Assembly: GCF_057098645.1 (NCBI RefSeq)
Contig: NZ_CM169472.1
DNA length: 64,000 nucleotides
Direction: 5' to 3' (one strand)
Under the pieces are notes generated by a model. The model did not search any database. It saw nothing but the letters and a program-made list of their open reading frames with translations, and was not told the origin of the DNA. Of the stretch, positions 1 to 33,090 are shown piece by piece; position 1 is the stretch's first letter; the number at the start of each line of letters is the position of its first letter. The position numbers and the translations under genes are program-made.

Positions 1-1234
1 TTTTTCTAATGGTCATAAGTATCTCGTCAATTTTATTTTGATCAATATTATCTAATTCATGAAGAATAACTATTTTATTCAACTCTTTGTATTGATATGC
101 CAAAGTGGAAGGATACGAAATGACAATATCTACATCAGGGAAATAATCATCATCTGTAATGAAATTCCATTTTGTCTTTTTGGCTTTTTCAGATGCTCTA
201 GCTTTTGGATGTTCTTTATAATAAAGAACAATATTATCTGATAACGTTGAAAGTTGTGACCCAAGACTTAGTTGTCCTCGTTCACACAATGAATGCCCAA
301 TAATTAGAATTGATAATCCTTTATTATTAATTGATGAAACATAAAATGGCTGTTGATAGAAATGAATTTTTATATTGTAATCATTAGCCTGTGAGATTAT
401 ATGCTCTAAAAATAATTCAAGCTCAATTTCGTTAAAGATAGCGAGCTCTGATACAGCTTTCAGTTTATATGAGAGAGAGAAAAATTCATAACCCTTAGTC
501 TTTAACGCCAGTAACGAGCCATGTTGAATTAATATATATCTTTTCCTTTTTATTCTGCATATAAAATCAGTTAAAACAGCCCAACGATCATAATGTTCAC
601 TACTTGCGAGATTGCCTTTAATATTATTCATTCCCATAGCAACCAAAAACCAAGAAGGTGCTGTATAAATATGAAGAAGCCATTTTATACGTGATGGTTT
701 TAAATAATAGATATAACTAAAAATAGATAACAAGAATGCTCTTGCCACATCTAGAAACGATGTTAATTCATATAAATTAATAGCATTAAAGTCACAACTC
801 GTTGGTGTATAATTTACCCATGGTAATTTTATTATAATAAGTTCATCTCGAGATAATTTGTAACTATCATTATCTTTAAAAAAATAGCAAGTTTGCCTCA
901 TTTCTAAATCTGAAAACGAAAAATAGTAAAATTTACCTTCCTTATTATTAGCAACCTTTATTTCTGAAATGGAATTTTTAAATTTAGCCAATATATATTT
1001 AGCAAAAAATAATATAACATATAATAAAAACCCCCCAAAAATAAAGGCAAACATAATCACTGCATAAATAATTTGCAAACTCGATGAACTCCACCTTTCC
1101 CCAGCCCATTTACTTGTCCTGGGAAGTGGTGGCATTTTTTTTGTAATGCTTTTTGATAAAGACTTATCGATATCTATTTCATTTTGTGTTGCGTGTAAAT
1201 AACATTCTATTATTTGCGACATTGATAATTGCAT
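1..1234 (-). CDS. Putative O-antigen glycosyltransferase, possibly a sialyltransferase; partial, 3' end lies beyond the window start
   Basis: Manual minus-strand translation from ATG 1232-1234 (alternative ATG 1220-1222) gives about 411 codons with no stop down to position 1. Absent from the ORF track only because it has no in-window stop. N-terminal hydrophobic helix; EHP motif near residue 350. Start overlaps wzy stop. Family assignment is a guess. Confidence 0.55.
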   Translation of the reverse strand, partial: MQLSMSQIIECYLHATQNEIDIDKSLSKSITKKMPPLPRTSKWAGERWSSSSLQIIYAVIMFAFIFGGFLLYVILFFAKYILAKFKNSISEIKVANNKEGKFYYFSFSDLEMRQTCYFFKDNDSYKLSRDELIIIKLPWVNYTPTSCDFNAINLYELTSFLDVARAFLLSIFSYIYYLKPSRIKWLLHIYTAPSWFLVAMGMNNIKGNLASSEHYDRWAVLTDFICRIKRKRYILIQHGSLLALKTKGYEFFSLSYKLKAVSELAIFNEIELELFLEHIISQANDYNIKIHFYQQPFYVSSINNKGLSILIIGHSLCERGQLSLGSQLSTLSDNIVLYYKEHPKARASEKAKKTKWNFITDDDYFPDVDIVISYPSTLAYQYKELNKIVILHELDNIDQNKIDEILMTIRK

Positions 1235-1236
1235 AT

Positions 1237-2424
1237 TTATCTTCCTATAGAGCTTTTAACTAATTTATATTTATATATATAATATCCGCATGAGATAAAG
1301 AACAATTGATTTACAGGAAAAGAATTTATAAATGAATTTGAAAGCCCGGATATTAGGAAATAAATAAAAACAACTCTCCAAATGGCTATATCTTCAGCCA
1401 TTAACTCATTAAATATTTTAAATTGTATGTTCCAGAAGATAAGCAGCAATAAAATTAATAAAACAATAAAAAAGCCGATTAGACCGGCATAATTAAACAT
1501 TACGAGATAAAAGTTATCTGAAATGAGATTTATATTTTTATCTAAAAAATCAGGTAGCAACATATTCAGATCAACTAAATTTAAATATGTCAGAAAGTTT
1601 TCAACTCGAATTGATGCCGTATACGTATTAAGACCTCGATATTGTGATTCAATACCAGAGATACTGCCCATATAAAATATGGCGTACAATGCACCGCAAA
1701 CAGTGCCAATGCTTGCAAGAGTAAATATTTTTTTTCGCAAGCGAATGCTGGCACTGTCTCTCAATACTACTGTTAATAAAAGTGTCATACCAAGTGATAA
1801 CCATGCTGTGCGCGAACCACTGCTAATTAACGTTATCATCGGCATTATAAGAAATAAAGCTCTTTTAAAAAGACTTTTTATATTTGTCACCAAGGCGATT
1901 AAAATAATAATCGCTGAATAAGCACCACTATTCGTAGGATTCAGAAGAGAAGATATTGACCTAATCCCATCAGTGGCAGCCCAATATGAAACCATATAAT
2001 TATAAAATACCGTTAATTCTAATACAGAAATCGTGCCTACAATAACTCCTGTCCATAAAAGAACTCTATTAACTTTCACCATATTATAAGAAAATAGAGG
2101 AATAATCAGGCAAAAGCTGATCATAGTTGCAATAATCAACATTGTTGTTGCGTAAATTGTTACCGCACCACTGAAAAGGGCTGAAGCAACAGACAGGAAC
2201 AAGAAAAAAAACAATACAAAAAAATAATTAAATTTCTTGTAAATAAATAAGATACTTAGACTTATAACTAAGCAAACTATATATTTTATAATTTTTTGCG
2301 TTAAATCTTCATTATATTTTAATGTGTCAACACCAGAAAAAATAGCATTTAAGTAATATAACGAAGAAATAATTAACCAAAAAAAAAGCACTCCATTTAT
2401 AAACTTATCTTTCTTTATATTCAC
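1237..2424 (-). CDS. wzy: O-antigen polymerase Wzy (polytopic membrane protein)
   Basis: 395 aa, highly hydrophobic multi-TM ORF; GSRTAWLSLG-type motif typical of O-antigen polymerase/ligase-like domain; very low GC; GTG start at 2422-2424. Confidence 0.6.
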   Translation of the reverse strand: MNIKKDKFINGVLFFWLIISSLYYLNAIFSGVDTLKYNEDLTQKIIKYIVCLVISLSILFIYKKFNYFFVLFFFLFLSVASALFSGAVTIYATTMLIIATMISFCLIIPLFSYNMVKVNRVLLWTGVIVGTISVLELTVFYNYMVSYWAATDGIRSISSLLNPTNSGAYSAIIILIALVTNIKSLFKRALFLIMPMITLISSGSRTAWLSLGMTLLLTVVLRDSASIRLRKKIFTLASIGTVCGALYAIFYMGSISGIESQYRGLNTYTASIRVENFLTYLNLVDLNMLLPDFLDKNINLISDNFYLVMFNYAGLIGFFIVLLILLLLIFWNIQFKIFNELMAEDIAIWRVVFIYFLISGLSNSFINSFPVNQLFFISCGYYIYKYKLVKSSIGR

Positions 2425-2431
2425 GTTTATT

Positions 2432-3670
2432 TTAAACCTTTTTTAGAATTTTATATAACGGGATCATTTTTAAGATCAAAAGTAATACAAAACTAGCTAT
2501 CATACCAATTAGCAAGTAATAGATATCACTTTGACATACGCTAAAAAAAACAAATAGTAAAAAAGATAAAAATGATATCAGTTGACTTACTAATATGTAA
2601 CGATCTTCTCTCATCGCGTATAAAGCAATATGTGGAATAAGACTTATACAATAGATATAAGTCGCTGCTATTAATAATATAAATACAGGAAATAATTGTA
2701 TGTAATCTCGTTTATCCAACCACTTAACCAATATAATCCCAGTAAAAAAGCAACAGATGCTCAAGAAAGATAGTAGTAAAATTAATTTATAAGTGAATTT
2801 TCTTAACTCAGATTTAAATTTTATATATTTTTTCCCTGAATATAACAAGGCAAGCTTTGGAAATGAAAAAGATATCAAAATAGTATCCAAAAATGATTGA
2901 ATAGCTGAAGTCATACTAACAAATAATGTATATCCCCCCAAAACTTCTAGGCCCGATATTTTTTCTACCGCGAATCTATCAAACGTGAAAAAGCCTCGTA
3001 GTGCAAGGGCTGCAATTAGCATTGGTACAGACAGCTTTATACCTTTTTTTATCCACGTCCAATCCCAGTTTGTAATATCGCTTTGTTTTTTTTTATTTAA
3101 AATATAAGCCACTCCAAGCACACTCGCGGACACAGTACCACCAAACCAAAAAATAAATACAACTGTTATATTTCTTAAGTTCGGATACACTAGCATCACA
3201 GCTATAGCTAACCAACACCATACACCTTGTCTTACAAAAAGAATAAAACTTGCAATCGATTGGCTTTCTATTGTTATTAGAACTCTATTAATCTCTTGTG
3301 ATAAGTGCTCAAAAAATAAAAGTAGGATAAACCAGTATTCACTTCCAGATGGTAATATTTCTAAATATAATAAAAAAATAAATGCCGGTATACATAGTAT
3401 ATAAGATATAACAGTAAATAGAGCTTGATTTTTTAGTATAAAAAAAAGCCTATTTTTTTGCGAGTTAATTATTTCTCTCGTTGAATACGTATAAAACTCA
3501 AAACCTACAACGAAAATACCATATCCTACAGCTGCATTAATTAATCCATACACTCCTAAATCTGTTGATGGTAAAAGTCGAGCAAGCAAAACAATGAAAA
3601 TAAATTTAGTAAGTAGAGTAATCCCTCTTAATCCAACACTTGAGTAATACTTAAGCATAGTATTAAACAT
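2432..3670 (-). CDS. wzx: O-antigen flippase Wzx
   Basis: 412 aa polytopic membrane protein; N-terminal region (LLARLLPSTDLGVYGL) typical of Wzx/RfbX polysaccharide-transport family; ATG at 3668-3670. Confidence 0.65.
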   Translation of the reverse strand: MFNTMLKYYSSVGLRGITLLTKFIFIVLLARLLPSTDLGVYGLINAAVGYGIFVVGFEFYTYSTREIINSQKNRLFFILKNQALFTVISYILCIPAFIFLLYLEILPSGSEYWFILLLFFEHLSQEINRVLITIESQSIASFILFVRQGVWCWLAIAVMLVYPNLRNITVVFIFWFGGTVSASVLGVAYILNKKKQSDITNWDWTWIKKGIKLSVPMLIAALALRGFFTFDRFAVEKISGLEVLGGYTLFVSMTSAIQSFLDTILISFSFPKLALLYSGKKYIKFKSELRKFTYKLILLLSFLSICCFFTGIILVKWLDKRDYIQLFPVFILLIAATYIYCISLIPHIALYAMREDRYILVSQLISFLSFLLFVFFSVCQSDIYYLLIGMIASFVLLLILKMIPLYKILKKV

Positions 3671-3801
3671 CCAAGGCCAATGTTAAAATCGGAAGTTTTT
3701 AATCTGTGATTATTAAATTTGCAATAATTTAAATATTAATATGAGGTTTTTAAATTTTAAATATCATACAAATAACTTATTAAAAACAATACCCATGTTG
3801 T

Positions 3802-4980
3802 TTATTTTAAATGACTATAGTCATATGCAACATCATAGAAGTCTTTATAATCCAACTTTTCATAAGTTAAAAAATCTTTAATGATTTTAACAATACTATT
3901 CATTACATCATTATTATAGTAAGGATTATGAGCATTTTTTACACGTTCAATGAAACTTTTCTGTTGTGAATAAGCAATGGCACATTCTATACTTTCTTTT
4001 TTACATATGGTATCTATTACCGAATCACCTCTAACCCTTCCTTTTTGGCGATCGCCTATATTAATCGTCGGAACCTTTAAGCTTGGAACCTCAATTAACC
4101 CAGATGACGAATTGCCTATTAAGCCATATGAATATTTTATCAAAGCTAGATATTCTTCAGGTCTCACAGAAATCATATATCGACAGCCATATACTCTACA
4201 AAAATCGAGAGTCATTTCTCTTATTTGTTCTGAACCAGTATCAGCATTTGAGCCAATAAAGATATAATCGTATTCTTCGCTAAAACTAGCTAATGCTTCT
4301 AGTAATTCTAAATACTGCTCTCTAACAGGTAAAGTTGATAACGTTTCAGGATGAAATACGACTACGAAATATTTTCTATTTAACCCACCGTACTTATTTT
4401 CAAGCTCCTTTTTAGAGGGTAATTCTAGTTGCAAACTGTTTTCAGCCCCTAGCGCACCTACATTAAATACACAATTAGGATCTTCACCAAGTTGGATAAC
4501 CCTTTTCCGATATTCATCAGTTGATACTAGATGTAGACGACTCATTTTCGTTATTGAATGTCGTATAAATTCATCATAATTCCCTAACGTTTTCTCTCCA
4601 CCATGAAGATGAATAATAGGTAGGTTATGCATAGAAGCTGCTACTGCCACTGAAAATATTTCGTATCGATCACCTAATATAATGACAGCATCATATTTTT
4701 TCTCTTGGAAATGCTCACCAAATGCTTGTTGGCATATCGACATCGTTTTCAAAACATCTGCGTTGGTTTTATTTTTCAGCTGCAAATCAATTAATTTTTC
4801 AATTAAGAAACCATCATTCTCGATTGTTTTATATGTATAACCATATTCAGAATCGCAATGCATACCTGTTGCAATAATTGATAAATCAATATCAGGATCA
4901 TCTTTTAGACTTTTTAATAGTCGTTTCATAATACCGTACTCAGCTCTTGAGCCGGTGACATAGAGCAATTTTCTTTTCAT
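3802..4980 (-). CDS. neuC: UDP-N-acetylglucosamine 2-epimerase (hydrolysing), NeuC/NnaA
   Basis: 392 aa; N-terminus MKRKLLYVTGSRAEYGI...IATGMHCD matches the NeuC family signature; ATG 4978-4980 overlaps neuA stop. Confidence 0.85.
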   Translation of the reverse strand: MKRKLLYVTGSRAEYGIMKRLLKSLKDDPDIDLSIIATGMHCDSEYGYTYKTIENDGFLIEKLIDLQLKNKTNADVLKTMSICQQAFGEHFQEKKYDAVIILGDRYEIFSVAVAASMHNLPIIHLHGGEKTLGNYDEFIRHSITKMSRLHLVSTDEYRKRVIQLGEDPNCVFNVGALGAENSLQLELPSKKELENKYGGLNRKYFVVVFHPETLSTLPVREQYLELLEALASFSEEYDYIFIGSNADTGSEQIREMTLDFCRVYGCRYMISVRPEEYLALIKYSYGLIGNSSSGLIEVPSLKVPTINIGDRQKGRVRGDSVIDTICKKESIECAIAYSQQKSFIERVKNAHNPYYNNDVMNSIVKIIKDFLTYEKLDYKDFYDVAYDYSHLK

Positions 4981-6242
4981 TTTAAGATACTCGAAATATC
5001 ATTTTCTAACTGTTTGTAAGCTTGTAACGTGAAATGTAAACCATCATAAGTATAATTTTCATTCAGATTGCCGAACTCATCATAAAAAGATGGAGATAAC
5101 GGCATCCAAATAACATTGTCTAATTTACTAAAATATTGTTTCATTGCCAGATTTAATTTATTGATAGTATTATTATCCCTATCAACTCTTCCTCGAACAG
5201 GCGGCACTGCTAGCAGAATGATAGTAACATCAGGATTTATAATTTTTACTCTATTGATCAGATTTTTTGTCCATTTTATAGTGTATTCAATAGTCCAACC
5301 ATCGTTCACAATGTCGTTTGTGCCTGAAATTAATAGCACATACTTACCTATATTGGTGAGCATGTTTTTTTCAATGATGTATTTGTAATATTTTTCGCTA
5401 TCAATGCCAGCAATGCCTAAATTGTTAACCTTAATTCCACATATGTTGCTGAGATCCCAATAATCAAAAATTGAATGTCCAATCAGTGTAATTTGCTCAA
5501 CTTTGTTAAATAAATCTTTTTTATCGACAATTCGTTTGATAATAGCATTATCCAATAAATTTTTTTTATTTTTTTTTGTTTGGATTAGAATTGCCAATTC
5601 AAAATCTAACTGATCATCGATATCAATAGAATCTTCTTTATTCATAATATAGGCTATACTGTCAGCACCAAAGAAATGTTTTTGTCTTAAATAATTAGAA
5701 ACATAACCAATAAAAATCGCACCATTTGGACAGTATTCTTTTTTATTTTGTCTACGATATGTACTAAAATCACAGTCAAAGTTCCTTAATGACAGTGAAT
5801 TATCAATTGGTTTAATTAACGCCGAACTTTTATCACTTTCTACCACAGACACCAAAAATTTTGCTTCGTGATTATTTTCAAATTGCTCAACAGCATTCTT
5901 AATATGCTTATAATTACGAAATGGTGATGTTGGTTGTAGAAGCACAAAATAATCATATCCTGGACATTTTTCAAGCACATCTTGAACTACCATAAAAGAT
6001 GTTGCCGAATCCGACGATAATTCTTTTGTGCGTAATATTACTTCCGCGCCATATTTCTCTGCAATATATTTATATTCTAATGAATCTGTTGAAACAATAA
6101 TTTTATCAAATATATTAGAGCTAATCGCTGCTTCGATAGTATAAGCAATTAATGGGCGATCCAATAACATTAGTATATTTTTATTTCGTAAGCCCTTAGA
6201 TCCAGACCGAGCAGGTATAATGGCAATTTTTTTTAATGACAC
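4977..6242 (-). CDS. neuA: CMP-N-acetylneuraminate synthetase with C-terminal SGNH/GDSL-like esterase domain, NeuA/NnaC
   Basis: 421 aa; N-terminus IAIIPARSGSKGLRNKN is the CMP-sugar cytidylyltransferase signature; C-terminal about 170 aa (LLISGTNDI...DGLHF) resembles the SGNH hydrolase domain of bifunctional NeuA; GTG start. Confidence 0.85.
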   Translation of the reverse strand: MSLKKIAIIPARSGSKGLRNKNILMLLDRPLIAYTIEAAISSNIFDKIIVSTDSLEYKYIAEKYGAEVILRTKELSSDSATSFMVVQDVLEKCPGYDYFVLLQPTSPFRNYKHIKNAVEQFENNHEAKFLVSVVESDKSSALIKPIDNSLSLRNFDCDFSTYRRQNKKEYCPNGAIFIGYVSNYLRQKHFFGADSIAYIMNKEDSIDIDDQLDFELAILIQTKKNKKNLLDNAIIKRIVDKKDLFNKVEQITLIGHSIFDYWDLSNICGIKVNNLGIAGIDSEKYYKYIIEKNMLTNIGKYVLLISGTNDIVNDGWTIEYTIKWTKNLINRVKIINPDVTIILLAVPPVRGRVDRDNNTINKLNLAMKQYFSKLDNVIWMPLSPSFYDEFGNLNENYTYDGLHFTLQAYKQLENDISSILK

Positions 6243-6245
6243 AAC

Positions 6246-7286
6246 TCAAACCTCTTGTTTACTAAAATCAGAGTGCTCAATTAGTTGATCCTCATCAAAA
6301 TCCTTTTCAGCTATTTTACCTAAGACCTCATACCAGTACATTGGACTAATTCCGTTTCCTGGTCGCTTTGTCGTAATATTTTCCGTCGTAAAAATATCTC
6401 CTTTTTTTATTGCACATTTAGCAACAATTGATTTTCGAGCTACTACTTTATTCTTTCGTTCTGAATTTGTTACTAACTTTTCATAGCTACCAAGTGAAAT
6501 TTCTACTGCACGTATTCCTTCGCATAGTAATTTAAGTTCCTCAGGTGTAACTGATGCTTTATGATCTGGACCTTCAAAATTTTTATCCAGTGTAAAATGT
6601 TTCTCAATAAAAGTGATCCCATAAGGCACTGATGCAATACCAGCAAAATAACCTGGAGAATGATCAGAAAATCCAATATTATATTGACTAAATATTTTTT
6701 TGAATCCAGAAATTGTATTTAGATTTACATCTTCAAATGGCGTTGGATACTCTGTATTACAATGTAATATTGTTATATTTCTATGTGTAATGCCATTATC
6801 AATAAAAACCTTTAATGCCAAATTGATTTCATCAACTGTTGCCATACCAGTTGATAGTACAATTTTTTTATCTTCGATTGGCAATTTGGCTATTTTCTCT
6901 AAATATGGTAAATTTAATAATTCGCCTGATGGAATCTTCCAAACTTTTTGATTTCTGGATGCAAGAAAATCGATTGAATCAAAATCAAATGGTGTTGAGA
7001 AGACATCCAACCCAAGTTCTTTTGCATATTCTTCCAGCTTGATAAACTCATCATATGGCAACTCTAACTTACGAGTCATCTCTAATTGAGTCTCTTCATT
7101 ACCGGTAACTTTTATTTGATATTCTGCTTTAGGAGCATATTTTGAGATAAGTTGCTCAGCTTTAAAAGTTTGGAATTTTACTGCATCTACCCCGGCAGAT
7201 TTTGCCTCTTTTACCATTTTCTTAGCTAACTCGAAATCTCCGTTATGATTACAACCAATTTCAGCAACAATATAAATTCTCGACAT
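6246..7286 (-). CDS. neuB: N-acetylneuraminate synthase, NeuB/NnaB
   Basis: N-terminus MSRIYIVAEIGCNHNGDFELAKKM...VDAVKFQTF is the NeuB signature; ATG at 7284-7286 preceded by AGGTGA; the track ORF begins 4 codons upstream at a GTG. Confidence 0.88.
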   Translation of the reverse strand: MSRIYIVAEIGCNHNGDFELAKKMVKEAKSAGVDAVKFQTFKAEQLISKYAPKAEYQIKVTGNEETQLEMTRKLELPYDEFIKLEEYAKELGLDVFSTPFDFDSIDFLASRNQKVWKIPSGELLNLPYLEKIAKLPIEDKKIVLSTGMATVDEINLALKVFIDNGITHRNITILHCNTEYPTPFEDVNLNTISGFKKIFSQYNIGFSDHSPGYFAGIASVPYGITFIEKHFTLDKNFEGPDHKASVTPEELKLLCEGIRAVEISLGSYEKLVTNSERKNKVVARKSIVAKCAIKKGDIFTTENITTKRPGNGISPMYWYEVLGKIAEKDFDEDQLIEHSDFSKQEV

Positions 7287-7294
7287 AATAAAAA

Positions 7295-7921
7295 TCACCT
7301 TGCTCTAATAAACTTTGTAGGAGCCCCGGCCACTACTACATTGTCAGGAACATCACGAATAACTACAGAACCAGAACCAATAATTGATGAATTACCTATC
7401 TTTAGTTGCCCATTAACAACGGTACAACTTCCTATAAAGGATTTTTCCCCAACGAATACATCACCATTAAGAACAACATTAGTAGAGATATTTGTACAAT
7501 ATGATATATAATTCCCATGCTCTACTAATGCTCTTGTGTTTATCACCACTCCATCTTCTAGTTCTGAATCACAGTTAATGATAGCCATTTTCCCTATATA
7601 AATGCAGGTACCAAGCCTAGAATGTTCAGAAATTATAGATGTTCTGTCAATTACATTGATAGTTGAAAGTTTCATTTCTTCTATTAACTTCATCCATAAG
7701 GCTCTGTAATCGGGATCTCCAATTGCAATAAAGTATAGGTATTGGTTAGGTTCGTCTATGACACCTAAAGTATCACCTAAAATAGGGTATCCTTGATGCT
7801 CACCTGTTTTAAATGTATCAATGAACCCTTCTATTTCATACTTTTCATGATCCAAACTGTCAATTACAGTTTTAGCAAAACCACCAGCACCAATAATTAT
7901 TAATTTTTGCTTCATATTCAT
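7295..7921 (-). CDS. neuD: Hexapeptide-repeat acetyltransferase of the sialic-acid pathway, NeuD/NnaD
   Basis: 208 aa; N-terminal Rossmann-like KLIIIGAGGFAK then left-handed beta-helix hexapeptide repeats; first gene after the JUMPstart region. Confidence 0.8.
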   Translation of the reverse strand: MNMKQKLIIIGAGGFAKTVIDSLDHEKYEIEGFIDTFKTGEHQGYPILGDTLGVIDEPNQYLYFIAIGDPDYRALWMKLIEEMKLSTINVIDRTSIISEHSRLGTCIYIGKMAIINCDSELEDGVVINTRALVEHGNYISYCTNISTNVVLNGDVFVGEKSFIGSCTVVNGQLKIGNSSIIGSGSVVIRDVPDNVVVAGAPTKFIRAR

Positions 7922-7996
7922 ACCATCTAATGGTTTGATTAGATCACATTAACTTTGTTGTTACTTGTATTCATGACAACGATAATACATAAATAT

Positions 7997-8035
7997 CTCA
8001 AAAACACACGCTACCGCCCCTGGCTTTACAGCAAC
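7997..8035 (-). promoter_or_regulatory. JUMPstart element with ops (GGCGGTAGCGTG on minus strand at 8007-8018) upstream of the O-antigen operon
   Basis: Exact ops 12-mer read on the minus strand; flanking bases acacgctaccgcccctggcttt are shared with the wza upstream copy at 33061-33082. Confidence 0.85.
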
Positions 8036-8245
8036 CAGAGCACTATCTGAATAACAAAGTTATAACCTGCCTCACCAGCCATAGCAAAGCATTATAATTT
8101 CAACTCTCAATTGTCTTACTAAATACTGGCAGAAACAAGGAAAATCCGACAAAAAATCGGAGTAACATTTTTTACTTAGTGTAATAACCGCAGAGACGTT
8201 AGCTGGCGTTGTTCTTTCTAACATGTGACTGCTAATGCTCGAAAT

Positions 8246-9151
8246 CTACTTCTCTAGTAACATCTCAATACTTTTACGGAACTTCGTCCCTTCTTTCAGG
8301 TTGCGTAGCCCATACTTCACAAACGCCTGCATGTAGCCCATTTTTTTGCCGCAGTCGTAGCTGTCACCAGTCATCAGCATTGCATCAACAGACTGTTTTT
8401 TCGCCAGTTCAGCAATAGCATCAGTCAGTTGGATACGTCCCCATGCACCTGGCTGAGTGCGTTCAAGTTCCGGCCAAATATCGGCAGAAAGCACATAACG
8501 GCCCACGGCCATGATGTCTGAGTCCAGCGTCTGCGGCTGATCCGGTTTTTCGATAAATTCAACAATGCGGCTGACTTTACCTTCGCGATCCAGCGTTTCT
8601 TTGGTCTGAATAACAGAGTATTCAGAGAGGTCACCCGGCATACGTTTTGCCAGCACCAGGCTGCGGCCCGTTTCGTTGAAGCGCGCAATCATGGCTGCAA
8701 GGTTGTAACGCAGCGGGTCGGCGCTGGCGTCGTCGATCACAACGTCTGGCAGCACCACGACAAATGGATTGTCACCAATGGCGGGTCGTGCACATAAAAT
8801 GGAGTGGCCCAAACCTAAAGGTTCGCCCTGACGCACGTTCATAATTGTCACGCCTGGCGGGCAAATGGACTGTACTCCCGCCAGTAGTTGACGCTTCACG
8901 CGCTGCTCAAGGAGAGATTCTAATTCATAAGAGGTGTCGAAGTGGTTTTCGACCGCGTTCTTGGACGCGTGAGTTACCAGGAGGATCTCTTTGATCCCTG
9001 CAGCCACAATCTCGTCAACAATGTACTGAATCATTGGCTTGTCGACGATCGGTAGCATCTCTTTGGGAATCGCCTTAGTGGCAGGCAACATATGCATCCC
9101 AAGACCCGCTACAGGAATAACTGCTTTTAAATTCGTCATTATTTCATCCAC
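8246..9151 (-). CDS. galF: UTP--glucose-1-phosphate uridylyltransferase paralogue GalF
   Basis: 301 aa; [44 protein letters not shown] matches GalF/GalU family; conserved position between colanic-acid and O-antigen clusters. Confidence 0.93.
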
Positions 9152-9412
9152 CTGTAAAATGGTTGCTGAATTATAGCTTGTTCGATTTTTTTCGCCAGCA
9201 TCAATTACCCTGAATTGATTACTGAATTACTTGTGATGTTACGCCGCTTCGTTGTGGATTGCAGTAGCATTGTTCCTAAGTATGGCTCCATTTTTCCAGG
9301 AATGGTCGCAAATCTACTCCCTCCGTTCCGGCAATCTAAAGTTAATCTTTTCCACATTAACAATATGGTGATTAATCCTGTCGATATCGACGGAGCTTTG
9401 TCCTTTTTCATT

Positions 9413-9421
9413 CACCGCATG
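9413..9421. repeat. IS1 target-site duplication, left copy (caccgcatg)
   Basis: 9-bp direct repeat identical to 10190-10198, immediately flanking the IS1 ends. Confidence 0.9.
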
Positions 9422-9476
9422 GGTGATGCTGCCAACTTACTGATTTAGTGTATGATGGTGTTTTTGAGGTGCTCCA

Positions 9477-9752
9477 GTGGCTTCTGTTTCTATCAGCTGT
9501 CCCTCCTGTTCAGCTACTGACGGGGTGGTGCGTAACGGCAAAAGCACTGCCGGACATCAGCGCTATCTCTGCTCTCACTGCCGTAAAACATGGCAACTGC
9601 AGTTCACTTACACCGCTTCTCAACCCGGTACGCACCAGAAAATCATTGATATGGCCATGAATGGCGTTGGATGCCGGGCAACCGCCCGCATTATGGGCGT
9701 TGGCCTCAACACGATTTTCCGCCATTTAAAAAACTCAGGCCGCAGTCGGTAA
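9477..9752 (+). CDS. insA: IS1 InsA (transposition inhibitor / N-terminal part of InsAB' transposase)
   Basis: 91 aa [43 protein letters not shown]... recognised as IS1 InsA. Confidence 0.95.
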
Positions 9753-33051: not shown

Positions 33052-33090
33052 GGCATCCAGACACGCTACCGCCCCTGGCTTTTTAGCTAC
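33052..33090 (-). promoter_or_regulatory. JUMPstart element with ops (GGCGGTAGCGTG on minus strand at 33062-33073) upstream of wza
   Basis: Exact ops 12-mer; about 180 bp upstream of the wza start. Confidence 0.85.

What the first reader, a model, noticed from the sequence alone, without database searches (positions are those of the whole stretch)
4977..7921. NeuA carries a C-terminal SGNH-like esterase domain alongside a NeuD acetyltransferase: possible O-acetylated sialic acid
The 421-aa NeuA is about 170 aa longer than a stand-alone CMP-sialic acid synthetase, and the extension looks like a GDSL/SGNH hydrolase. Bifunctional NeuA enzymes of this type de-O-acetylate sialic acid, and NeuD-type proteins acetylate it. 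Their co-occurrence suggests the O-antigen sialic acid is O-acetylated and that the level is tuned enzymatically.
Basis: inference. Interest (0 to 1): 0.4.

Follow-up and report, generated by a model that had tools for sequence, protein, structure and literature searches.

The report
Known two-domain NeuA in O145 cluster
The E. coli O145 O-antigen locus carries the standard four-gene sialic-acid cassette, whose NeuA has an intact C-terminal acetyl-esterase domain next to a NeuD acetyltransferase; this pairing is well known and present in every related cassette examined, so it does not show that the O145 sugar ends up O-acetylated.

Summary
The window is the E. coli O145:H28 rfb region. On the minus strand, neuD (7295-7921), neuB (6246-7298), neuA (4977-6242) and neuC (3802-4980) form one overlapping gene block. 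NeuA is 421 aa: a CMP-sialic acid synthetase domain (residues 6-193) plus a GDSL/SGNH domain that passes Pfam's threshold. Ser257, Gly279, Asn309, Asp400 and His403 are invariant in 124 homologues. An AlphaFold model (pLDDT 95.9) matches PAF-acetylhydrolase-type hydrolases and Bacteroides sialate O-acetylesterases (TM 0.83-0.87).

The same neuD-neuB-long neuA-neuC cassette occurs in all 11 loci examined: seven E. coli loci (O145, O104, O24, O131, K1 and two others) plus Citrobacter, Aliivibrio, Aeromonas and Cetobacterium. The pairing is therefore a constant of the cassette, not a marker of O-acetylated product. In E. coli K1, published work describes NeuD acetylating free Neu5Ac and NeuA activating it and then removing the acetyl group, leaving only 2-4% O-acetylation.

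The most likely reading is a transient acetylation/deacetylation cycle inside CMP-Neu5Ac synthesis. Residual O-acetylation of O145 is possible but untested. The feature is already known and of low interest.

The parts
4977..6242 (-). neuA (nnaC): bifunctional CMP-Neu5Ac synthetase plus SGNH esterase, 421 aa
   Evidence: ORF. Pfam PF02348 and PF13472. 100% match to O145 genomes, annotated 'cytidylyltransferase domain-containing protein'.
5580..6242 (-). NeuA N-terminal cytidylyltransferase domain (about residues 1-221)
   Evidence: Aligns to N. meningitidis CMP-NeuAc synthetase 1eyr over residues 3-220, E=3.3e-32. The ARxGSKGLxxKN, LLQPTSP and DSIDID motifs are conserved in the printed alignment.
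4980..5507 (-). NeuA C-terminal SGNH / PAF-AH-like esterase domain (about residues 246-421): Ser257 (GHS), Gly279, Asn309 (GTND), Asp400 and His403 (DGLH)
   Evidence: Alignments. AF2 model pLDDT 95.9. Foldseek top hits are 2hsj, PAF-AH 1wab and sialate O-acetylesterases 6njc/7pzh.
6246..7298 (-). neuB (nnaB): N-acetylneuraminate synthase. RefSeq start is at 7286; the longest ORF overlaps the end of neuD by 4 nt.
   Evidence: TIGR03569, 467 bits, cut-off 399.65. Pfam NeuB plus SAF. RefSeq annotation.
7295..7921 (-). neuD (nnaD): left-handed beta-helix acetyltransferase of the NeuD/PglB/VioB family. RefSeq start is at 7915.
   Evidence: TIGR03570, 188.5 bits, cut-off 160.8. PglD_N plus Hexapep. 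His135 (208-aa numbering) aligns with the position mutated in the PerB H141N/H141A entries 4eaa and 4eab. It is 60% identical to K1 NeuD.
3802..4980 (-). neuC (nnaA): hydrolysing UDP-GlcNAc 2-epimerase. Its start overlaps the neuA stop by 4 nt.
   Evidence: TIGR03568, 445 bits, cut-off 235.9. Coordinates.
8007..8018 (-). ops element (GGCGGTAGCGTG) of the JUMPStart sequence in the galF-neuD intergenic region, upstream of the operon
   Evidence: Sequence read. Pattern search. Its role as an RfaH-dependent antitermination site is from general knowledge.

Best explanation
This is the conserved neuD-neuB-neuA-neuC cassette that supplies CMP-Neu5Ac for the E. coli O145 O unit. NeuC makes ManNAc from UDP-GlcNAc, and NeuB condenses it with PEP to give Neu5Ac. 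NeuD uses acetyl-CoA to O-acetylate free Neu5Ac on the glycerol side chain. The N-terminal domain of NeuA activates the sugar with CTP. The C-terminal SGNH domain of NeuA (nucleophile Ser257, oxyanion hole Gly279/Asn309, Asp400-His403) then hydrolyses the O-acetyl ester. The main product is therefore CMP-Neu5Ac, with at most a minority of O-acetylated donor escaping into the polymer. The domain architecture, catalytic residues, fold and cassette conservation are shown here. The enzyme activities and their order are inferred by homology to the characterised E. coli K1, S. suis and GBS enzymes. The amount of O-acetyl that survives in O145 LPS is unknown.
For: Domain calls and family scores. The N-domain aligns to solved CMP-NeuAc synthetases with motifs conserved. 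SGNH blocks I, II, III and V are present and invariant across 7 E. coli NeuAs, including K1, and across 124 homologues. The high-confidence model matches PAF-AH-type hydrolases and sialate O-acetylesterases. NeuD keeps the histidine aligned with PerB His141. Overlapping gene ends and a single upstream ops element fit one operon. The cassette has identical order in 11 of 11 loci from five genera. The cycle, the 2-4% residual O-acetylation and the acapsular neuD mutant in K1 come from PMC8653822. The GBS NeuD/NeuA interplay comes from PMC8319020. No other acetyltransferase is annotated in the O145 cluster.
Against: No experiment on the O145 proteins was found. The obligate-cycle model comes mainly from one group's work on K1 and S. 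suis. In GBS the esterase is described as a modulator, and substantial O-acetylation can persist. O104 has the same module, and a review names Neu5Ac,7Ac,9Ac among E. coli O-antigen sialic acids, so near-complete removal is not universal. The closest solved relatives of NeuD are N-acetyltransferases of nucleotide-linked amino sugars, so its substrate cannot be read from sequence.
Confidence: 0.8

Rival explanations
1. One reading: the O145 O antigen carries a substantial, enzymatically tuned level of O-acetylated Neu5Ac, because NeuD acetylation outruns or balances NeuA de-acetylation, as in GBS capsules.
For: The same enzyme pair sets capsule O-acetylation in GBS. O104 has the same cassette and no other acetyltransferase in its cluster, and a review lists Neu5Ac,7Ac,9Ac among the sialic acids of the five sialylated E. 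coli O antigens. In the related Salmonella O48 antigen the sialic acid is substituted at C-4, which would leave positions 7 to 9 free. That O145 has the same linkage is my recollection and was not verified here.
Against: The pairing is present in every cassette examined, whatever the serogroup, so it is not diagnostic. In K1 only 2-4% O-acetylation comes from this route, and the bulk needs the separate enzyme NeuO. The esterase catalytic residues are fully intact in O145. I found no report of O-acetyl-Neu5Ac in O145. The O145 structure paper could not be read.
Confidence: 0.25
2. The C-terminal domain is not a sialate esterase in vivo. It acts on another ester, for example PAF-like lipids as suggested by the in-vitro PAF-acetylhydrolase activity reported for K1 NeuA, or it serves mainly a structural or oligomerisation role for the synthetase.
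For: The best structural matches include PAF-acetylhydrolases and uncharacterised GDSL proteins. The title of Liu et al. 2004, cited, reports PAF-AH activity for K1 NeuA.
Against: The catalytic residues are invariant in 124 homologues, which argues for catalysis. The domain is always fused to a sialic-acid-activating enzyme and always sits next to neuD. Sialate O-acetylesterases match equally well structurally (TM 0.83-0.86). K1 and GBS NeuA are described as sialate O-acetylesterases.
Confidence: 0.05
3. NeuD in this cluster is not a sialic acid O-acetyltransferase. It supports Neu5Ac synthesis in another way, for example by stabilising NeuB or acting on another substrate, so no acetylation cycle exists in O145.
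For: The nearest solved relatives are N-acetyltransferases: PerB, PglD and VioB. A neuD mutant in K1 loses all capsule. The FEMS review lists NnaD simply as 'N-acetylneuraminic acid synthetase'.
Against: NeuD is described as the sialic acid O-acetyltransferase in GBS and K1. O145 NeuD is 60% identical to K1 NeuD, and the aligned active-site His is conserved. Its constant partnership with an esterase-bearing NeuA (11 of 11 loci) is hard to explain otherwise.
Confidence: 0.07

Closest known systems
E. coli K1 NeuA (kps region 2), bifunctional CMP-Neu5Ac synthetase / O-acetylesterase, with K1 NeuD
   Same: Same two-domain architecture and length (418 vs 421 aa). 56% identity in the N-domain and 50% in the C-domain. 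Identical GHS, GxxG, GTND and DGLH motifs. Same neuD-neuB-neuA-neuC order. NeuD is 60% identical.
   Different: K1 uses the product for an ABC-exported alpha-2,8 polysialic acid capsule at the kps locus. Here the cassette sits in a Wzx/Wzy O-antigen cluster between galF and gnd. K1 can also carry the phage-borne polymer acetyltransferase NeuO; none is annotated in the O145 cluster.
Group B Streptococcus NeuA/NeuD system
   Same: Described as a bifunctional NeuA (cytidylyltransferase plus esterase) and a NeuD O-acetyltransferase whose interplay sets O-acetyl-CMP-sialic acid levels.
   Different: No GBS sequence was retrieved here, so identity and residue equivalence (for example the esterase-dead mutant position) were not tested. 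GBS is Gram-positive, with a terminal alpha-2,3 sialic acid on a capsule.
nnaDBCA modules of E. coli O104, O24 and O131 and of Citrobacter
   Same: Identical gene order immediately downstream of galF and the JUMPStart. NeuA is 419-421 aa with all catalytic residues. Citrobacter portucalensis NeuA is 86% identical and its whole cluster is syntenic with O145.
   Different: Different downstream glycosyltransferases and Wzx/Wzy. Reported O-acetylation differs between serogroups although the module is the same.
PAF-acetylhydrolase Ib catalytic subunits, 2hsj, and Bacteroides/Phocaeicola sialate O-acetylesterases (SGNH, Pfam Lipase_GDSL_2)
   Same: Same fold (TM 0.77-0.87) and the same catalytic motif positions.
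   Different: Those are stand-alone proteins with about 20-26% identity. Here the domain is fused to a nucleotidyltransferase, and block I reads GHS instead of GDS.

Membership tests
Bifunctional NeuA (CMP-Neu5Ac synthetase + sialate O-acetylesterase) | N-terminal CMP-sialic acid synthetase (CTP_transf_3) domain with conserved nucleotide and Mg-binding motifs | tested here: met
   PF02348, E=1.4e-33. Aligns to 1eyr and 6ifd with E about 1e-32, and the motifs are conserved.
Bifunctional NeuA (CMP-Neu5Ac synthetase + sialate O-acetylesterase) | C-terminal SGNH / PAF-AH-like domain with Ser nucleophile, Gly and Asn oxyanion residues, and a DxxH pair | tested here: met
   Ser257, Gly279, Asn309, Asp400 and His403 are present. 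Each is invariant in 124 sequences except His403 (123/124). PF13472 scores above its cut-off. Fold confirmed.
Bifunctional NeuA (CMP-Neu5Ac synthetase + sialate O-acetylesterase) | Clear sequence homology to a biochemically characterised member (E. coli K1 NeuA) over both domains | tested here: met
   56% identity in the N-domain and 50% in the C-domain, with a full-length alignment.
Bifunctional NeuA (CMP-Neu5Ac synthetase + sialate O-acetylesterase) | Located in a de novo sialic acid cassette together with neuB, neuC and neuD | tested here: met
   neuD, neuB, neuA and neuC are contiguous with overlapping ends.
Bifunctional NeuA (CMP-Neu5Ac synthetase + sialate O-acetylesterase) | Measured esterase activity on O-acetylated (CMP-)Neu5Ac | not testable with these tools
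   Needs an enzyme assay. No publication on the O145 protein was found.
NeuD/NnaD sialic acid O-acetyltransferase (TIGR03570 NeuD/PglB/VioB subfamily) | PglD_N-type N-terminal domain plus left-handed beta-helix hexapeptide domain, scoring above the family threshold | tested here: met
   TIGR03570, 188.5 bits, cut-off 160.8. PF17836 plus PF00132.
NeuD/NnaD sialic acid O-acetyltransferase (TIGR03570 NeuD/PglB/VioB subfamily) | Conserved catalytic histidine of the PglD/PerB-type active site | tested here: met
   His135 in 'VEHGN' aligns with the residue mutated in the PerB H141N/H141A structures. It is invariant in 7 E. coli NeuDs.
NeuD/NnaD sialic acid O-acetyltransferase (TIGR03570 NeuD/PglB/VioB subfamily) | Acetyl-CoA-dependent O-acetylation of Neu5Ac | not testable with these tools
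   Inferred from 60% identity to K1 NeuD and from literature on K1 and GBS.
   The primary O145 structure paper is not held. Searches found no statement either way.

The most novel reading that the evidence does not exclude
In O145, and perhaps in all Wzy-type sialylated O antigens where the sialic acid is linked through O-4, a significant and condition-dependent fraction of NeuD-acetylated CMP-sialic acid escapes the NeuA esterase and is built into the O antigen. Native EHEC O145 LPS would then be partly 7/9-O-acetylated. This modification could have been lost during alkaline or acid work-up in structural studies. It would affect serology, phage and sialidase recognition, and interplay with the prophage NanS-p esterases of EHEC.
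Probability: 0.15. Interest if true: 0.4.

Novelty: already known. Interest (0 to 1): 0.1.

Why it matters
It matters little beyond correct annotation. RefSeq labels this protein only 'cytidylyltransferase domain-containing protein', which hides the esterase half. The useful point is a caution: NeuD plus a long NeuA is the default form of this sialic-acid cassette and does not predict an O-acetylated surface polysaccharide. If O145 LPS did turn out to be partly O-acetylated, that would bear on O145 serodiagnostics, glycoconjugate antigen design and phage or sialidase susceptibility. That question needs chemistry, not sequence analysis.

Tried and rejected
- **Primary papers.** I tried to read Feng et al. 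2005 (O145 structure), Lewis et al. 2007 (GBS NeuA), Steenbergen et al. 2006 (K1 esterase) and Czuchry et al. 2015 (O104 WbwA). None is held.
- **Literature searches for O145 O-acetylation.** Five searches, the follow-up reads, and the search and reads on the related Salmonella O48 antigen found no statement about O-acetylation of O145 sialic acid. The supplements of the FEMS review are not held.
- **A dedicated O-acetyltransferase in O104.** I expected one that would explain O104's acetylated sialic acid and separate it from O145. None is annotated between galF and gnd, so that distinction was dropped.
- **A sequence signature separating O104 NeuA from the others.** Only minor block II differences were seen (YGVSG vs LGIAG), and these also occur in other homologues. 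They are not diagnostic.
- **Pseudaminic or legionaminic acid pathway.** I considered whether NeuA might belong to one. NeuB scores above the NeuB_NnaB equivalog cut-off and below the PseI cut-off. NeuA's PseF score (146 bits) is far below its cut-off of 205.7. Rejected.
- **GBS NeuD F88C polymorphism.** It could not be mapped because no GBS sequence was retrieved.
Full report
**What is in the sequence.** Window positions 1 to about 8000 have 27-34% G+C, against about 50-56% in the flanking DNA. They carry a run of minus-strand ORFs. The 4.1-kb stretch 3802-7921 matches 37 E. coli genomes at 99% identity or more, and most of those listed are labelled O145 or O145:H28. RefSeq annotation of one of them gives the gene order galF, acetyltransferase, neuB, 'cytidylyltransferase domain-containing protein', neuC, O145 wzx, O145 wzy, a hypothetical protein, an N-acetyl sugar amidotransferase, hisH and hisF homologues, fnlA and wbjC. 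This is followed by wecB, a GT4 glycosyltransferase, a WbuC-family protein and then gnd. The finding therefore lies at the 5' end of the published E. coli O145 O-antigen cluster.

**Operon layout.** An ops/JUMPStart element (GGCGGTAGCGTG) sits at 8007-8018 on the minus strand, upstream of neuD. The ends of neuD/neuB and of neuA/neuC overlap by 4 nt each. This layout fits one operon.

**Checking the observation.** NeuA (4977-6242, 421 aa) has two Pfam domains:
- CTP_transf_3 at residues 6-193, E=1.4e-33.
- Lipase_GDSL_2 at residues 272-410, 42.9 bits against a gathering score of 32.9.

The N-terminal half aligns to the 228-aa N. meningitidis CMP-NeuAc synthetase (1eyr) over residues 3-220, with the nucleotide-binding and DSIDID motifs conserved. 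The Pfam match to the esterase family starts at profile position 36, so I checked separately whether block I, which holds the nucleophile, exists. It does. The alignment to PDB 2hsj pairs I-G-H-S-I with I-G-D-S-I, GTNDI with GTNDI, and DGLH with DGLH.

**Conservation of the catalytic residues.** I aligned the window protein with six other E. coli NeuAs (O104, K1, O24, O131 and two unnamed serogroups). The motifs TL(I/V)GHS, NN(L/Y/F)G(I/V)(A/S)G, GTND and DG(L/I)HF are conserved in all seven. Across 124 full-length homologues, Ser257, Gly279, Asn309 and Asp400 are invariant and His403 is present in 123 of 124.

**Fold.** An AlphaFold2 model of residues 226-421, built on a 26-sequence alignment, has mean pLDDT 95.9. 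Its best PDB matches are:
- 2hsj, E=2.8e-14, TM 0.87.
- Brain PAF-acetylhydrolase Ib subunits, TM 0.77-0.79.
- Sialate O-acetylesterases of Bacteroides/Phocaeicola vulgatus (6njc, 7pzh), TM 0.83-0.86.

A profile of the domain hits the same set by sequence: 2hsj at E=1.6e-24 and 6njc at E=2.6e-15.

**NeuD.** NeuD (7295-7921) scores 188.5 bits on TIGR03570 NeuD_NnaD, whose cut-off is 160.8. It is 60% identical to K1 NeuD. It keeps His135 at the position mutated in the PerB H141N/H141A crystal structures.

**What it is.** The literature held here describes exactly this pair.
- In GBS, NeuD O-acetylates monomeric sialic acid. The bifunctional NeuA activates it and can deacetylate it before or after activation (PMC8319020).
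- In E. coli K1, NeuA is described as bifunctional, citing Liu et al. 2004. The pathway is described as NeuD acetylation of free Neu5Ac, then activation by NeuA, then de-O-acetylation by NeuA. Only 2-4% O-acetylation of the capsule comes from this route, a neuD deletion loses the capsule altogether, and the bulk of O-acetylation needs the phage enzyme NeuO (PMC8653822).
- The O145 NeuA is 56% identical to K1 NeuA in the N-domain and 50% in the C-domain.

**Does co-occurrence predict O-acetylation?** I examined the gene neighbourhood of long NeuA genes in 11 loci:
- Seven E. coli loci: O145, O104, K1, O24, O131 and two other types.
- Four other genera: Aliivibrio, Aeromonas, Cetobacterium and Citrobacter.

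All 11 have neuD-neuB-neuA(about 420 aa)-neuC in the same order. All of the full-length sequences among the 120 best database homologues of NeuA carry both Pfam domains. The pairing is therefore a fixed property of the cassette.

It is also not excluded. Neither the O145 nor the O104 cluster has any other annotated acetyltransferase. A review names Neu5Ac,7Ac,9Ac among the sialic acids found in the five sialylated E. coli O antigens. I recall, but could not verify here, two further points: that the published O145 repeat is described with plain Neu5Ac, and that the related Salmonella O48 antigen is partly O-acetylated. The relevant papers are not in the library.

**Mechanism and confidence.**
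- Shown here: two-domain architecture, intact catalytic residues, SGNH fold, operon context and cassette conservation.
- Inferred by homology: NeuD O-acetylates Neu5Ac, the NeuA C-domain removes the acetyl group from the (CMP-)sugar, and the net product is mostly CMP-Neu5Ac.
- Unknown: the residual O-acetylation of O145 LPS.

I put about 0.8 on the transient-cycle reading. I put about 0.25 on the product carrying a substantial level of O-acetyl; the two overlap, because a leaky cycle would satisfy both.

**Novelty.** The gene cluster was published in 2005 (cited). The bifunctional NeuA has been known since 2004-2007. Some database records already name close homologues 'GDSL-type esterase/lipase family protein'.

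Noticed in passing
window 1-1234 (minus strand); full gene in L001:14009-15265: The 418-aa 'hypothetical protein' after wzy is, by elimination, the candidate sialyltransferase of the O145 cluster. It has no Pfam match at all, even at E<=1. O104, O24 and O131 instead carry a GT52 enzyme. It may be an unclassified sialyltransferase family.
   Followed up: partly
L014 (Citrobacter portucalensis-type contig, Logan ERR163861) 8325-21266: A Citrobacter contig carries a cluster syntenic with O145: neuDBAC, a flippase, three unannotated genes, hisH and hisF homologues, and fnlA-like genes. Its NeuA is 86% identical. Salmonella enterica NeuA fragments are 75-82% identical. Together with the low G+C at window 1-8000, this points to inter-genus transfer of the whole O-antigen cluster.
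   Followed up: partly
L015 (E. coli O145:NM FWSEC0002) 1573-2767: neuA is annotated as a frameshifted pseudogene in this O145:NM clinical strain, with a 1-nt length difference from the window. It could be an assembly error, or a real loss of CMP-Neu5Ac synthesis in a strain still typed O145.
   Followed up: partly
L003 (E. coli M7424 kps locus) 6993-11775: A K1-type capsule locus from a human faecal isolate has a frameshifted neuA, a frameshifted DUF6716 gene and a split polysialyltransferase. It looks like a decaying K1 capsule locus.
   Followed up: no
window 6187 (NeuA codon 19), plus 8638, 3851, 3758, 3263, 2936, 2535 and 1618: The window differs from strain RM9872 at 8 positions in the first 9.2 kb. 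One gives NeuA Arg19 instead of Pro19 in the GSKGLxNKN motif. K1 NeuA also has Arg there, so it is probably neutral. None of the differences lies in the esterase domain or in neuD.
   Followed up: yes
L012 (Aeromonas veronii) 10648-11328: This neuDBAC cluster has an additional hexapeptide-repeat acetyltransferase gene a few genes downstream of neuC. Nothing comparable is in the O145 cluster. It may be a dedicated polysaccharide O-acetyltransferase.
   Followed up: no
window 33066-33073 (minus strand) and six further sites: The 8-mer GGCGGTAG occurs 8 times in the window, against 1.35 expected by chance. The copy at 8011-8018 is the O-antigen ops element. By position, the copy at 33066 may be the colanic-acid JUMPStart. 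The others were not examined.
   Followed up: no
window 7295-7921 and 6246-7298: The longest-ORF starts differ from RefSeq. NeuD is 208 aa here and 206 aa in RefSeq (start at 7915). NeuB is 350 aa here and 346 aa in RefSeq (start at 7286). RefSeq's product name for neuA omits the esterase domain.
   Followed up: yes
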